Made by a program: the position numbers | Part shown: positions 36,001 through 45,000 of the stretch, piece by piece | How positions within the stretch are numbered: position 1 is the first letter of the stretch | Layout: the number at the start of each line of letters is the position of its first letter | NCBI GenBank assembly: GCA_965202585.1 | Contig: OZ241832.1 | Span: 56,916,001-56,980,000 of the forward strand | Length of the DNA: 64,000 bases | DNA from: Thalia democratica | Lineage: Eukaryota | Direction of reading: 5' to 3'

Positions 36001-39000
36001 ATAATATTATAATAGTTAAATTTCAGCAAGTCGACTTATTTTTAATATCATTCTAACACGAGTTTATTTATTATCGATTTGTTTTTTTCTTAAATTTAAC
36101 ACAGAATTTTTGAGAGATTTTTTGCTCGATAAAAAAATGTATAGAGGTTGGTAATTTAGTTGCATATATTTCTAGCATTAACAAAAGTATTTTAAAGAGT
36201 TTCACAAAACCGATATATTTTGCTGATTTAGCTTTCAATAAATAAACTTACAGATAGTAGTTGCTAATATTAATTTGTGAAAAAGTGTTTGAAGAATTTA
36301 TGCCAAAAGTAATTAACGAAACGTACGTAATGCAACAAAAAACACGTAAGTTATTGATTGAGTTTTTATTTACTGTTTATTTTACTAAAAGTTTATTTAA
36401 GTTTTAATTCTTAAATTTAGTTTTATAAAGACCTTATCATAGTGTTATACCTTATTTTTTTAGTTTTTACCAGACGTTGAAAAATTATTAGCTGTATTGA
36501 TAGGGCTAATTGTCAAATCTTTTACTTTGTATTTTACTTGTATTTTATTTTACTAAAAATTTATTTAAGTATAACTTTTTTGATGTTCTTAAGTGAATTT
36601 AATATATTTTTTTATTATGTTTTGACTTTTTACAATACAATAAAAATTTAATATACTGTTTTAATAGATTTTGTTCTGAACTTTATCTTGAAAACCTTTA
36701 GCAGTATATTCATTTAATTATTATTTTTTTTGATTATTTTTACTTTTTTAAATTTTTATCATTTTTCCAGAAAAAGATCAGACGCCGAAAGACTGCGACC
36801 AGCTGATCACTGTGAGCATCAAGGAGAGCAAGAAGCGCAAGAAGCGCAAGATGAATAAAATATGCTCCTACTGCTTCAAGAAGAAGAGGACGCTGATCGT
36901 CTTCATCGTAATATTCCTCATCGTCGCGCTGGCGTGCACCTTTGTTTTGCTGAAAAATCGAGGTGAGTTTCGTTGAGGTTACGAGAAGCAGTTGAAACAA
37001 TTTTTACCTATAAATATTTAAAAATAACATTTCTGTTTGTGACTTTTATTGAGTTTTGTAGTTAAATTGGAATTTAAAATGTTATATCCCTATCAATATT
37101 TAAACAAAACAATTCTTTTTTTAAAATAACTTTGTTTTACAAAAATTCAAACAGTTTTTAAGAAATTCGAAAAATACTAACACCAAAAGCACCAAACAAG
37201 TTTATTCTATAAAGTTTAACTGTTTTTACAGGTTTGTTCTACAATAACACATCTAAAACTGACGACGAGTTGGTTTCCACCAAAAATCTTGCAGTCCCGA
37301 AAAACAGCTGCAGCCTCACAATCAGCAGCAAGTCGAAAGAGTTCCAAGTGAAGAAAATAATCTTGAACAAGAAAACTTTTGATGATTTCTTTCAAACCGA
37401 TAAAGAAAAGTTCAACGGAGAAAAATGGATTTCTCTGAAGAACATCGTCAATTCTGGTGAAAATAATAATGTAGAATTGAAAATGTTATACAAAAAAGAT
37501 TATGTCACAAGTAACAATCACGTAACAAAAAACCCTGATAATGACGTCACAAATGACGATGACGTCACAGTAGTGTTCCACGAGTCGTGCAACCGGCTTC
37601 TACCGATCCTCGGCTACTTCAGCCGAAACACTACGACAAGTGATCACGTGGACTTGCTCAAGCGTGACAAGTGCGATTTCGAGCACGTCGATTCGAGGGT
37701 CAACTGCAACTGGCGGGAAATAGTTCCAAACGGGGAACTCCCCTCAGTTGATCACGAGAAGAGGCGGGAAAGTTCAAAGAAAGTCCCTGTAAACTGCGCC
37801 GCTTTCCAAGGCGTGCAGGAAAAGGAGAACGTTCAGAACCAGTTCTTTGCCAAAGTGGTCGGCGACCCTGACAGCGGGGAGAAGTTCACCACCGCCTACA
37901 TGACGTCACCGACCTTTGACGTCACGGAACTGGATCACGTGACTTTCTCGATGCACTCGGCGATCCACTGCGACGGGTCGAGCTTGAGAGGTTACGTCAT
38001 ACCGGCCAGCAATGACGTGTTGGAGGAGGTGGAAAGTGCGGAGAGTTTTTTCGAGGTCGACCACGCCGTGTTCGGGTGGAAGATGGAGAAGTTCAATTTC
38101 GACGTTTCCACCCTCGCCGGTGAATACAGGGTCGGTTTGCTGCGTGTTTTGTAAAGTGTTTGAGTAAAAATGTTGAAGTTTTTGAAGCGCTTGCTACTTT
38201 TATTTTTTGCTTTAAAAACTTTTTATGATAGTAGTACTTACAAACACTAAATACTTCTGTTATTTGATTTTTGAATATTTTATTGACATATTGTTTTTAA
38301 ATATGTTATTGACAATGTTTAAACGGGCGTATAGTATACTTACAAACACTTAATATTCCATTGCATAATTTATTTAAAATGTCATTTAGTAGCTTCGAAA
38401 TTTAGCAAAACTAGTTTTTTTAAAACTGACAAATGAAGTTTTCAAAAAAGAGCATTGCGTAAAAGTTCAATCAACGAAATCGGCGAAAGTCTGCAGAACA
38501 AGTCCGGACTTTCGTTTGCCGTGAGACAAGCTCAAATTTAACAAAAAGGTTGATAATGCCAATTCGATCAGATGTCTTGCCTAGTGGACAATGTTTGAAA
38601 CGTTGCACGGCAAAGACAATGCTGACGTCACTAATCATTGCCAGCAAATGGTTGCTTCATGTGAAAGCATCATAATCCGTTTGTAGATTGACGACTACAA
38701 GTTTTTTGGTTGTGACTGACTGATGAGTCCTAATAAGGACAAAACCGGTCTCAGTCTACCGAAACTTGTGGTCTGATGATCGAATTGGCATGATCAATCC
38801 TTTTGCGTTAAAGTTATAAAGCGATTACAAATATTTATTTATTATAAAAAATATTACGACAACAGTTTAAAAGTTTAATTTTTTTTTTCTAATTTACTAT
38901 GTTTTAAGAGTTTTTCAATATAAAATAAGCTATAGTGTTGGAAAAATACAATAATAATTGTCAAACCATGTACAAGCTACTGTTTCGGACCACTATATAT

Positions 39001-42000: not shown

Positions 42001-45000
42001 GTATATTTTTAAAACAATTTCTGTCTTTAGTAGGTTTTTATTCATTATTTATAAAGGTATTTTACTCACTAGTCTTTTAAAGATTGCCTTATTACAAAAT
42101 GTTAACCAATTTTTAAAGAAAAATAATATTTTTCAGATTTCGTCGAAGTAAAATGAAAAGGTTAAACATCAATGTGGAAAGAAAATGCCAGTTGAATAAT
42201 CGTGCTTTTAACTGATTTTGCTAGTTTAAGCTTAAAAATTACTAATTTATGAAGTTTTAAGTTTGAAAATTAGTGTTTCAAATGGTTGTATTTACAGATT
42301 GAGTAACTTTAAGCTTTGTTTAATGTGATTTGTTTATTCCTAATAAACTTAAAAATTGCGAAAAACGATATAAGTACCATTTTGGTTAAAAATATTGTCT
42401 GTAAACGTTATGAAAAGTTTAATTGACTTTTAATAAAAGTTTATTTAAAGAATTTAAAGTTCTAAACTTTAGTATTTTTCTTTTAATTTTCAAAAGGTTT
42501 GCTGTCTTATTTTTAATTTTTGTTTACTGAGTTCTACTTGTTTAGTTTTAATTTTTTGTATTAACCATTTTCGTGGTTTAGCTAAAAAATAAGTTTACGA
42601 GTTGAAACTTAACTTTTTCTAAGAAATATTTAAAGTTTTTCAATTATACTGACAAACATTATTTTATTTTACCTCTGTAGCGCTATTGTATTTTTTTGCC
42701 TTTTCACGTTTTAGTAATTTATATGCAAATCAGCATAAACACTGTGTAAAAAATAAAAACAAAATACTAGTGTGTTATGAAAGTGCATTTAAACGGTTGT
42801 AAACTAATAATGTTTTTGTTAGATTGGCTTTAAAAAATTTTAATAAAATATATTACATTTTCTAAAATTTTATATAACAGATTTAAGTTTTTAATTTTAA
42901 AAACTTATGTAATCATGTATTTGTTAACGCTAAACATTATTATGGACTGTGTAAATATTGTATACTTTTATAAATAATAAGTGTTGACTATTGCTGATTT
43001 TACAGATTTTAATCACAAGTTAAGCATTTCGAACTTTTATTTATTTTAGAATAAACTGCAGACAAACTTTCGAGCTTTGTGAATTTTAGAATAGAAATTG
43101 GTATAGAACAAGAAAAGAAAAATAAACAAATCTTGTTTTACCCTATAGTATAAGTACTGATGATTTAAACTGTTATTAAAACAGTTTAATTCTGTTTGTG
43201 ACAAAAAAGTCTTTTAAATATCAAGTTTTTAACTTTTTTATAGCTACAAAAATTTTAAATACTTAGTTGCTTAATGATTTGCGTTTCTTTGTTTTACCTG
43301 TTATATTAAAAACTAGTTTGAATTTTTTAAAACAGTAAAAAGCAACTTATAACTTATTTTAAACCCTACAAATTATGATTATTTACGAGTTTTGTTTTAT
43401 ATATTTTTTGTAACAGGTTTCATTTAAAAAAAGGTATGACACAAGAAGCGTTTTCATTAATTTGTAAAAGGAAACATTATTTTAGCCTTAAAGGAAATAA
43501 AAATTTTCGCGTACCTTACGCATGTGCGTACTTATTATAGAAAACATTTAAAAATAATAAATTAATGTGTGTTAAAAATTTAGTGCGTACCTTATGCGGT
43601 TACATACTTCTTAATGTGCGTACCTTATCAATGTACATACTTTGTTAATAGCACAAATTTAAAATTATGGTTTAGTTTAGACTAGATTGCAGCCCGAATC
43701 AAATGAACATGATTTTAATTTCAGTTCGATGTTGGTGCAACATCATCCTAGCTGATTATCACATATCTAACTAAATTTATTTTTGTTTGTAAAAAATAAA
43801 TTACATAAATGTACTTATAGATCTAACAATTGGTTTATGTGAACTCAAGTGTTTTTCGTTTACCAAATTTTAAAAATACAAAAACAAAAGATAATATTTA
43901 TAATAGGCCAAGCCACTACTTCTATAAATTTACTAAATATAAATTATATAAATACACTTATAAATCAAACAATTGGATTATATGTGTTCAAGTTTTAACT
44001 TTTATTTTTGTTTATTAAATCTTAAATACAAAAACTATCCGAAATAATTATAAATGCCAAGCCACTACTTCTTTAGTTAACAAAATATAAATCAAACAAC
44101 TGGTTTATGTGTGTTAAAGTTTTTATGTATATAAACATTTTTTCTTTACAAAATCTTAAATACAAATCTATCCATAGCCTTTTAGTAAGCTGAGCCACTA
44201 CTTCTATTAGTTTACAAAATATAAATTACATAAATGTACTTATAAATCAAAAAATTAGTTTATTTGTATTGGAGTCGTTTTTTTTATTTTTTTGTTTATA
44301 AAATTTATGACAAATACTCTCCATAATATACTACTCAATAATATTTATTTAAGGACTAGACACTATTTTATTTTCCATTCAATTGCAGCAACTTAATTGC
44401 AGCAACATCTAAATACTACCTATAATTTTAATGACATAAAATCAAGTTAAGGGTAGATTTATGCAACTCTATCCATAAAATAGTGCCCATAAATTAGTAC
44501 CCATAAAAAGTCGTACCGGTTTACTTCTACCTTTTGAGACGGACTTTTTGTTTTATTTATATGGTTTATAAGTTTTGAAAACAATAAAAACTGTTATCTA
44601 AATGTAAAATACAAGGAAAAAATGCTGTCTAAAAATACGAAAAAAAGCTTAATTATCAAAAATGTTGTTAACAAATTATTGATACAGCATAGTTTATCAT
44701 AATTACAAAATTAGAAATGTTTATTGATGTCGAATTAAAATTATACATGAATAGTATAGAACAGTTTTTGTGCATTTACCTCTTAAACATTTGAGATTTA
44801 AAATTTCACTGTTTATACCTTTGTCCTCACGACAAATTTATTTCGATTTACAGCCACTACTGCAGTTTAAATTTATATTTGAACTAACAACAACCTTATT
44901 CAAATTTAATTTTTCATCATTTTTAAAGTTTTTAGTTCGCTCATTCTTAGGAGGGTCTACATTCGTGTCCTTAAGTTGGTCTTTGCATGCTATATGTAAG

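What the first reader, a model, noticed from the sequence alone, without database searches (positions are those of the whole stretch)
36300..42156. Unannotated-looking architecture: protease-less type II membrane protein made of MAM-like repeats
The ORF track shows only fragments, but eight exons splice in frame into 568 aa. The protein has a short basic cytoplasmic tail (KKRKKRK, CxxC-like CSYC), one TM helix without a signal peptide, a truncated MAM-like segment, one clear MAM domain, and a second divergent MAM-like domain ending at the C-terminus. MAM domains are established adhesion/dimerisation modules, usually in type I or GPI proteins (meprins, RPTP-mu/kappa, neuropilin, zonadhesin, MDGA). 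The well-known type II example, enteropeptidase, carries a serine protease, which is absent here. A duplicated, diversifying MAM-only type II receptor family could act in recognition, such as gamete, allorecognition or immune roles (inference).
Basis: partly seen in the sequence, partly recalled or inferred. Interest (0 to 1): 0.65.

Follow-up and report, generated by a model that had tools for sequence, protein, structure and literature searches.

The report
Duplicated type II membrane glycoprotein gene
This is a real, multi-copy, eight-exon gene for a single-pass membrane protein with a large cysteine-rich outer part, but the claim that this part is built of MAM adhesion domains could not be confirmed.

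Summary
The gene model holds. Eight GT-AG exons (36300-42156, + strand) give 1707 nt, that is 568 codons plus TGA. An inverted paralogue (53038-48109, - strand) keeps every exon and splice site. Between the copies, exons are 94.7% identical and introns 82.1%. Exons carry one in-frame 3-nt indel; introns carry 1368 gap columns. dN/dS is 0.27. A third copy runs off the window.

The basic tail, one 21-residue hydrophobic helix, positive-inside charge, and ectodomain-only cysteines and sequons fit a type II glycoprotein. No protease exon lies downstream before the convergent paralogue.

The MAM reading is not verified. Pfam found no MAM match in any exon piece, even at E<=10. PDB sequence searches found none. 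Internal-repeat tests were negative. Both AlphaFold models were unusable, at pLDDT 32-34. The only support is weak: 24 of 30 ESM Atlas neighbours of exon 3 are MAM clusters.

"Diversifying" is not supported. Interest is modest.

The parts
36300..36345 (+). Exon 1: first in-frame ATG and 15 codons plus 1 base of the cytoplasmic N-terminus. This is the least certain exon.
   Evidence: The ORF frame opens at 36261 and the first ATG is at 36300. The donor is GTAAGT. It is 46/46 identical in copy 2 and lies in a 56-nt perfect run, longer than any non-exon run (46 nt). GC is only 0.33 with no codon periodicity.
36771..36962 (+). Exon 2: basic cytoplasmic tail (KKRKKRK, CSYC) and the membrane helix.
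   Evidence: GC3 is 0.78 in frame. Between the copies there are 9 synonymous and 2 non-synonymous differences. Splice sites are kept in copy 2.
36890..36952 (+). Coding stretch of the 21-residue hydrophobic signal-anchor / transmembrane helix.
   Evidence: The 19-residue Kyte-Doolittle mean is 3.36. The N-flank has 7 K/R and 0 D/E in 15 residues.
37232..38130 (+). Exon 3: juxtamembrane ectodomain segment (first ~144 codons) and the N-terminal ~155 codons of the putative MAM-like module. The end could instead be 38119 or 38150.
   Evidence: It lies in a 313-aa open frame. It is 94% identical to copy 2 with no indel. ESM Atlas gives 24 of 30 neighbours as MAM clusters. Pfam and PDB found no match.
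39168..39291 (+). Exon 4: C-terminal end of the putative MAM-like module, with 3 cysteines and 1 sequon. The start could instead be 39181 or 39185.
   Evidence: There are 4 synonymous and 1 non-synonymous differences in 35 codons. The acceptor and donor are kept in copy 2. Pfam found no family.
39665..39745 (+). Exon 5: start of the C-terminal ectodomain segment.
   Evidence: There are 6 synonymous and 2 non-synonymous differences. It is GT-AG, kept in copy 2.
40606..40718 (+). Exon 6: C-terminal ectodomain segment, with 2 cysteines and 1 sequon.
   Evidence: It holds the only exon indel between the copies, a 3-nt in-frame one. The donor is GTAAGT.
41114..41345 (+). Exon 7: 77 codons, beta-rich-looking end of the ectodomain.
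   Evidence: It is 229/232 identical to copy 2 and 230/232 to copy 3. GC3 is 0.74. The Atlas best hits are unnamed bacterial clusters, with MAM only at rank 7 at 0.89. Pfam gave none, and PDB gave only E 1.6-1.8 chance hits.
42137..42156 (+). Exon 8: last 6 codons and the TGA stop (42154-42156).
   Evidence: The acceptor is TTTTCAG. It is 20/20 identical in copy 2 and 19/20 in copy 3.
42342..42347 (+). First AATAAA after the stop (candidate poly(A) signal).
48109..53038 (-). Copy 2: complete inverted paralogue, tail to tail with copy 1. All eight exons are intact.
62723..64000 (-). Copy 3: exons 7 (63753-63522) and 8 (62742-62723) of a third paralogue. The rest lies beyond the window.
35071..43230 (.). 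The ~8-kb segment that is duplicated in inverted orientation at 54293-47028.
   Evidence: Self-blastn found pieces of 80-89% identity.

Best explanation
The locus is a functional, recently amplified gene family with at least three copies in about 29 kb, in an AT-rich eukaryotic genome.

Each copy encodes a protein of about 568 aa made of three parts:
- a cytoplasmic N-terminus of about 55 residues with a polybasic cluster and juxtamembrane cysteines;
- one 21-residue signal-anchor helix;
- a lumenal/extracellular part of about 490 residues with 12 conserved cysteines and 5-6 N-glycosylation sequons.

This makes it a single-pass type II membrane glycoprotein with no enzymatic domain that Pfam can see.

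Inferred: the ectodomain is a chain of disulfide-bonded beta-sandwich modules. The central one (exon 3 second half plus exon 4) is probably a very divergent MAM-like jelly roll.

Inferred: the protein acts as a non-catalytic cell-surface binding or adhesion molecule.

The copies evolve under purifying selection and are partly homogenised by gene conversion, rather than diversifying.

Shown here: exon structure, conservation, selection, hydrophobic helix, charge asymmetry, absence of downstream exons.

Inferred: topology, glycosylation and disulfides, fold, binding function.
For: - Gene model arithmetic and splice sites.
- Exon/intron contrast in GC: 0.467 against 0.239.
- Codon-position GC.
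- Paralogue comparison: exons 1616/1707 identical against introns 2463/3001 (Fisher p 2.5e-38). Exons have 3 gap columns against 1368 in introns.
- 16 of the 20 longest perfect runs overlap exons.
- dN/dS is 0.27, from 46 non-synonymous differences over 1319 sites and 42 synonymous over 346 sites (p 6e-9).
- The hydrophobic helix is unique, and the N-flank is basic.
- 12 of 12 ectodomain cysteines and 5 of 6 sequons are kept in copy 2.
- There is no GC island between exon 7 of copy 1 and exon 7 of the convergent copy 2. The stop codons are 5952 nt apart, and AATAAA lies 186 nt after the stop.
- MAM-like lead: 24 of 30 ESM Atlas neighbours of exon 3 are MAM clusters, top score 0.91.
- Gene conversion: pS is 0.037 in exon 7 and 0.052 in the second half of exon 3, although the flanking introns differ by 13-24%.
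Against: - No transcript evidence was available.
- Exon 1 and the exon 3/4 junction are not fixed: three in-frame options exist, and the donor of one is lost in copy 2.
- No Pfam MAM hit in 3 searches covering 21 pieces, of which 19 were pieces of this gene or its paralogue.
- 0 PDB sequence hits for exon 3 as a sequence and 0 for the second half of exon 3 as a profile. Exon 7 gave 2 hits at E 1.6-1.8, neither a MAM protein.
- The Atlas signal is weak by the tool's own marks: recognition 2078 below 2300, and 166 shared features below 170. For exon 7 the MAM cluster is only rank 7.
- AlphaFold models were unusable, at pLDDT 31.9 and 33.5. Foldseek found 0 matches at E<=0.001 in both searches.
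- No similarity among the three proposed modules.
- Exon 3 alone has pN/pS 0.5-0.6, which is not significantly below 1.
- Topology was not run through a dedicated predictor.
Confidence: 0.55

Rival explanations
1. The gene and topology are as above, but the ectodomain is not MAM at all. It would be a lineage-specific cysteine-rich beta-rich domain set, or another member of the concanavalin-A-like or other sandwich folds, that merely shares loose motifs with MAM.
For: - Pfam found no MAM match in any piece at E<=10.
- PDB sequence and profile searches found no MAM protein.
- The Atlas scores sit in the range that 4-10% of shuffled proteins reach.
- The best Atlas neighbours of exon 7 are unnamed bacterial clusters.
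Against: - 24 of 30 Atlas neighbours of exon 3 are MAM clusters, and all ten best named hits agree.
- The putative domain is split over two exons and was only searched in pieces, which lowers profile sensitivity.
Confidence: 0.3
2. The protein is secreted, not membrane-anchored. Translation would start at the internal ATG of exon 2 (36851), and the hydrophobic stretch would work as a cleavable signal peptide cut after its small-residue A-L-A triplet, releasing a soluble MAM-like glycoprotein.
For: - An in-frame ATG lies 13 codons before the hydrophobic stretch.
- Exon 1 has no codon-position signal.
- Upstream of that ATG in exon 2 there are only 3 differences between the copies (1 first-position, 2 third-position), too few to prove coding.
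Against: - The hydrophobic run is 21 residues with more hydrophobic residues after the A-L-A. That is long for a signal-peptide core and typical of a signal anchor (established knowledge; the sequence is).
- The exon 2 part upstream of the ATG is GC3-rich like coding sequence.
- Exon 1 is perfectly conserved.
Confidence: 0.12
3. It is a Golgi/ER-resident type II protein (stem plus lumenal lectin-like or unrecognised catalytic domain) rather than a cell-surface receptor.
For: A short basic N-tail, a signal anchor and a large lumenal part is the standard layout of Golgi-resident type II proteins (established knowledge). The layout itself is shown.
Against: - No glycosyltransferase or other enzyme family appears in any exon piece.
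- A tail of about 55 residues is longer than usual for Golgi enzymes (established knowledge).
Confidence: 0.08

Closest known systems
Enteropeptidase (TMPRSS15) and other type II transmembrane serine proteases
   Same: N-terminal cytoplasmic tail, a single signal-anchor helix and a mosaic ectodomain. Enteropeptidase's heavy chain includes a MAM module among SEA, LDLR, CUB and SRCR modules (PMC13012022, passages seen).
   Different: No serine-protease, SEA, LDLa, CUB or SRCR match in any exon piece. There is no room for downstream exons before the convergent paralogue.
MAM-domain adhesion and receptor proteins (meprins, RPTPmu, neuropilins; Pfam PF00629)
   Same: An extracellular cysteine-containing module of similar length. 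The language-model neighbourhood of exon 3 is dominated by MAM clusters. MAM is a jelly roll with four cysteines in intramolecular disulfides (PMC5104691, passages seen).
   Different: Those proteins are type I, GPI-linked or secreted (recalled, not checked in a call), and they match the Pfam profile. Here no profile match was found and no similarity to solved MAM chains. The fold could not be modelled.
Neuronal pentraxin receptor (a type II membrane protein with a non-catalytic jelly-roll ectodomain)
   Same: It works like one: a signal-anchored, protease-less protein presenting a lectin-like beta-sandwich outside the cell. Its topology is recalled. Only a listing and abstract naming the receptor were seen.
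   Different: No pentraxin match. No relationship is claimed; it is only an architectural analogy.

Membership tests
MAM domain (Pfam PF00629) | Match to the Pfam MAM profile | tested here: not met
   hmmscan found no MAM row at E<=10 in any of three searches. One search covered 6 exon-bearing ORFs. One search covered exon 3 halves and the paralogue's exon 3. One search covered 10 sub-pieces, including both copies of exons 4 and 7. Caveat: the putative domain spans exons 3 and 4 and was searched only in pieces; the joined step was left out.
MAM domain (Pfam PF00629) | Jelly-roll beta-sandwich fold superposable on solved MAM domains | tested here: inconclusive
   AlphaFold2 on exon 3 (305 aa) gave pLDDT 31.9, and on its second half (161 aa) 33.5. 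Foldseek against the PDB gave 0 matches at E<=0.001 in both searches. A LAST-MAM chain at rank 2 and rank 21 had probability 0.33 and 0.16, which is not meaningful.
MAM domain (Pfam PF00629) | Four conserved cysteines forming two intramolecular disulfides (PMC5104691) | tested here: inconclusive
   The central module has 7 cysteines (4 in the exon 3 second half, 3 in exon 4), all kept in copy 2. Without a profile alignment they cannot be assigned to the MAM positions.
MAM domain (Pfam PF00629) | Sequence similarity to solved MAM-containing chains | tested here: not met
   phmmer of exon 3 and hmmsearch of the two-copy profile of its second half each gave 0 PDB sequences at E<=10. Exon 7 gave 2 chance hits at E 1.6-1.8, neither a MAM protein.
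MAM domain (Pfam PF00629) | Language-model feature neighbourhood | tested here: inconclusive
   For exon 3, 24 of 30 hits are MAM clusters, with top score 0.91, recognition 2078 and 166 shared features. For exon 7, a MAM cluster appears only at rank 7, score 0.89.
   The BLASTP E-values were 4.3, 0.19 and 0.37. The hhalign probabilities were 0.17-0.44%.
Type II (N-in) single-pass membrane proteins | One hydrophobic helix of about 20 residues, none elsewhere | tested here: met
   The stretch is 21 residues with a KD19 of 3.36. The maximum in the other exons is 0.90.
Type II (N-in) single-pass membrane proteins | Positive-inside charge on the N-terminal flank; cysteines and sequons on the C-terminal side | tested here: met
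   There are 7 K/R and 0 D/E in the 15 residues before the helix. All 12 conserved cysteines and 6 sequons lie after it.
Type II (N-in) single-pass membrane proteins | No cleavable signal peptide; experimentally N-in topology | not testable with these tools
   No SignalP or TMHMM-type predictor and no experiment were available. The internal-ATG signal-peptide rival stays open.
Type II transmembrane serine proteases | C-terminal trypsin-like protease domain | tested here: not met
   No Trypsin family appears in any exon piece. There is a stop at 42154-42156 and no GC island before the convergent copy 2.

The most novel reading that the evidence does not exclude
This could be a protease-less, MAM-like-only type II receptor family that signals through its own tail. 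The ectodomain would bind a partner. The protein would then be cut within the membrane, as other type II proteins are by SPPL2-type proteases (recalled). The released ~55-residue N-terminal fragment, carrying the NLS-like KKRKKRK cluster, would enter the nucleus. The clustered copies, kept alike by gene conversion, would form a small recognition locus (gamete, self/non-self or immune). Nothing found here excludes this, and nothing tests it.
Probability: 0.07. Interest if true: 0.6.

Novelty: new member of a known kind. Interest (0 to 1): 0.3.

Why it matters
If the MAM-like reading were confirmed, this would be a MAM-type ectodomain on a signal anchor without any protease. That is an architecture I could not find described: 0 papers combined 'MAM domain-containing' with 'type II membrane protein', and none of the listed titles concern one.

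As it stands, the locus is a well-supported but uncharacterised, locally amplified membrane-glycoprotein gene. It is useful for annotating this genome. It is also a tidy example of paralogues homogenised by gene conversion, but it does not open a long-standing question.

Tried and rejected
- **Structure.** Two AlphaFold2 jobs were run, on exon 3 and on its second half, each aligned with the paralogue. They gave pLDDT 31.9 and 33.5. The two Foldseek PDB searches on them returned 0 matches at E<=0.001 and are not used as evidence.
- **PDB by sequence.** Exon 3 gave 0 hits and the profile of its second half gave 0 hits. Exon 7 gave 2 chance hits.
- **Internal repeats.** Three BLASTP and three hhalign comparisons were all non-significant.
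- **Rfam.** The whole window gave 0 matches at gathering thresholds.
- **Literature.** Four searches found no description of a MAM-only type II protein. Only listings and abstracts were seen, except passages of PMC5104691 and PMC13012022. Supplements are closed and were not seen.
- **Local profile libraries.** I looked for them on the script machine and found none.
- **Pseudogene reading.** Rejected: both complete copies are intact, with dN/dS 0.27.
- **Downstream protease exons.** Rejected.
- **Not done:**
  - No search or fold of the joined 568-aa protein, or of the joined exon 3+4 module.
Whether orthologues with the same architecture exist stayed unchecked.
  - The one genome-contig scan (bacteria/archaea only) and complex prediction were not used, because neither bears on an intron-containing eukaryotic gene with an unmodelled fold.
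  - The organism was not identified.

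
Full report
**Setting.** The window is very AT-rich, at 0.18-0.26 GC in most 2-kb bins. It contains no N. It has short GC-rich islands that coincide with open reading frames. I do not take it for human. The organism was not identified, and I did not try to trace its source. 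Rfam found nothing at gathering thresholds.

**Is the gene model real?** Reading the sequence and checking the arithmetic by script gave eight exons:
- 36300-36345
- 36771-36962
- 37232-38130
- 39168-39291
- 39665-39745
- 40606-40718
- 41114-41345
- 42137-42156

All seven introns are GT-AG. No exon has an internal stop in the model frame, and the five split junction codons are sense codons. The total is 1707 nt, which is 568 codons plus TGA.

- Exons are 46.7% GC against 23.9% for the introns, and CpG o/e is 1.28 against 0.90.
- Third-position GC in the model frame is 0.78, 0.64 and 0.74 for exons 2, 3 and 7.
- The short exons 1, 4, 5, 6 and 8 show no clear periodicity.

**Independent support from paralogues.** An ~8-kb segment (35071-43230) is repeated in inverted orientation at 54293-47028. 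A third copy starts at about 62066 and runs off the window at 64000.

- In the copy 1/copy 2 alignment the exons are 1616/1707 identical (94.7%) and the introns 2463/3001 (82.1%). Fisher p is 2.5e-38.
- Exons carry 3 gap columns, a single in-frame 3-nt indel in exon 6. Introns carry 1368 gap columns.
- Of the 20 longest perfectly identical runs, 16 overlap model exons.
- All acceptors and donors of the model are kept in copy 2.
- Summed per exon, without joining, there are 42 synonymous differences over 345.7 sites and 46 non-synonymous over 1319.3 sites. That gives dN/dS 0.27 (p 6e-9).
- Copy 3 keeps exon 7 (230/232) and exon 8 (19/20) with their splice sites.

So this is a functional gene present in at least three copies.

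**Two details of the model stay open.**
- *The exon 3/4 junction.* Besides 38130/39168 (568 aa), the pairs 38119/39181 (560 aa) and 38150/39185 (569 aa) are also in frame. The donor of the last pair is destroyed in copy 2 by a 1-nt deletion, and the 18 nt before it carry 3 non-synonymous and 0 synonymous changes. That option is therefore the least likely. The other two are kept in both copies.
- *Exon 1.* It is supported only by the first in-frame ATG after a stop, a consensus donor, and a 56-nt perfect run, longer than any non-exon run of 46 nt. An alternative start at the internal ATG at 36851 cannot be excluded.

**What the protein looks like.** It also has the only strongly hydrophobic stretch, 21 residues encoded by 36890-36952. 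Its 19-residue Kyte-Doolittle mean is 3.36, against 0.90 or less in every other exon.

- The 15 residues before the stretch hold 7 K/R and no D/E.
- In the model about 55 residues precede the helix and about 490 follow it.
- All 12 cysteines after the helix are kept in copy 2, as are 5 of the 6 N-x-S/T sequons.

By the positive-inside rule (established knowledge), this is a signal-anchored, N-in/C-out (type II) disulfide-bonded glycoprotein. It is an inference, because no topology predictor or experiment was available.

**No protease.** No exon piece matches a protease family.
- The stop at 42154-42156 is followed by AATAAA 186 nt later.
- There is no GC island between exon 7 of copy 1 and exon 7 of the convergent copy 2, whose stop lies 5952 nt away.

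The 'further downstream exons' refuter therefore does not apply within this window.

**The MAM claim.** The joined protein, and the joined exon 3+4 module, were never assembled, searched or folded.

Evidence against:
- Pfam returned no MAM row for any piece, even at E<=10. One search covered six exon-bearing ORFs. One search covered exon 3 in two halves and the paralogue's exon 3. One search covered ten sub-pieces, including exons 4, 6 and 7 and both paralogue copies of exons 4 and 7. The listed rows are all below their curated cut-offs and unrelated to each other.
- PDB sequence searches gave 0 hits for exon 3 and 0 for the two-copy profile of its second half. Exon 7 gave two chance hits at E 1.6-1.8.
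- The three proposed modules show no similarity to each other. BLASTP E-values were 0.19-4.3, and hhalign probabilities were below 0.5%.
- AlphaFold2, with only the near-identical paralogue as alignment, gave pLDDT 31.9 for exon 3 and 33.5 for its second half. Foldseek on those models found nothing at E<=0.001. These runs say nothing either way.

Evidence for:
- The one positive result is the ESM Atlas feature search. For exon 3, 24 of the 30 nearest clusters are MAM clusters, with a top score of 0.91.
- That signal is weak by the tool's own marks. Recognition is 2078 (below 2300) and there are 166 shared features (below 170). Both fall in the range the tool describes as weak evidence.
- For exon 7 the best neighbours are unnamed bacterial clusters, and a MAM cluster comes only at rank 7 with 0.89.

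MAM domains are jelly rolls with four cysteines in intramolecular disulfides (PMC5104691, passages). The central module here has seven conserved cysteines, but they cannot be assigned without an alignment.

My reading is that 'MAM-like' is a fair lead for the central module, at roughly even odds. 'One clear MAM domain' overstates it, and the two flanking 'MAM-like' segments are unsupported. A domain split over two exons loses profile sensitivity, so the negative Pfam result is weaker than it would be on the full domain. That check stays open.

**'Duplicated, diversifying'.** Duplication is confirmed, but diversification is not.
- Every exon has pN below pS.
- Exon 3 is the least constrained, with pN/pS 0.58 and 0.52 for its halves. 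Neither half is individually significant.
- Exon 7 (pS 0.037) and the second half of exon 3 (pS 0.052) are far more alike than the introns next to them, which differ by 13-24%. A 141-nt perfect run starts 28 nt upstream of exon 7.

That pattern suggests gene conversion between the copies, that is concerted evolution rather than diversifying evolution (inference).

**Mechanism, committed.** I think it most likely that this is a non-catalytic type II cell-surface glycoprotein whose beta-rich, disulfide-bonded ectodomain binds a partner.
- The gene and the coding frame are close to certain.
- The topology is likely.
- The MAM-like fold of the central module is about even odds.
- The binding or adhesion role is inferred only from architecture.

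The rivals are:
- an unrelated lineage-specific fold;
- a secreted form using the hydrophobic stretch as a signal peptide from the internal ATG;
- a Golgi/ER-resident type II protein.

**Comparison with known systems.** Enteropeptidase is a type II protein whose heavy chain holds a MAM module among SEA, LDLR, CUB and SRCR modules, plus a protease (PMC13012022, passages). None of those partners is found here. Classical MAM proteins match the Pfam profile, and this one does not.

Four literature searches found no MAM-only type II protein. That is absence in a partial library, judged from listings, and supplements were closed.

**What stayed unchecked.** Whether well-characterised orthologues with the same architecture exist is therefore unknown.

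**Verdict.** It is unproven on MAM, and wrong on 'diversifying'. This is a sound annotation of an uncharacterised, locally amplified membrane-glycoprotein gene, of modest interest.

Noticed in passing
window 38194-39112, with inverted ends at 38542-38570 and 38777-38805; related copy at 12853-13022: Intron 3 of copy 1 carries a ~0.9-kb insertion that copy 2 lacks. Inside it is a MITE-like element with 29-nt inverted ends (90% complementary, 206 nt apart). An 84%-identical copy lies elsewhere in the window.
   Followed up: partly
window 41086-41345 and 37666-38130 against copy 2: Exon 7 and the second half of exon 3 have synonymous divergence of only 0.04-0.05, while neighbouring introns differ by 13-24%. 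A 141-nt perfect run begins 28 nt upstream of exon 7. This suggests gene conversion between paralogues.
   Followed up: partly
exons of copy 1 (36771-41345) and ORF 16625-17977: Third-codon-position GC is 0.64-0.78 inside a 24% GC background, and CpG o/e is 1.28 in exons against 0.90 in introns. This is an unusually sharp exon/intron composition contrast.
   Followed up: no
window 37542, 37560, 37901, 37917 (exon 3), 38623, 51606, 51947, 3159, 19753: The palindrome TGACGTCA occurs 9 times against 0.32 expected from whole-window shuffles. Four of these are in exon 3 of copy 1 and two in copy 2. The shuffles do not allow for GC-rich exons, so this may only reflect repeated Asp-Val-Thr codons.
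   Followed up: no
window 16625-17977 (+): A single 450-codon open frame carries THUMP (E 2e-07) and UPF0020/RMKL-like methyltransferase (E 1e-33) domains. Its closest solved relative is archaeal tRNA guanine-N2 methyltransferase Trm14 (E 4e-12). It is probably a THUMP-family tRNA methyltransferase gene.
   Followed up: partly
window 18920-19990 (+): A 356-codon GC-rich open frame, rich in acidic residues, Pro and Phe, has no Pfam family above cut-off. It is probably another intron-poor gene, with identity unknown.
   Followed up: no
window 56183-56490 and 57776-58014: A GC-richer repeated element appears twice between copy 2 and copy 3. It is visible as near-identical short ORF translations on both strands. 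It is probably a transposon or satellite remnant.
   Followed up: no
window 36376-36503 / 36544-36667 and 41411-41656 / 41832-42066: There are direct duplications of 70-73% identity inside intron 1 and inside intron 7 of copy 1.
   Followed up: no
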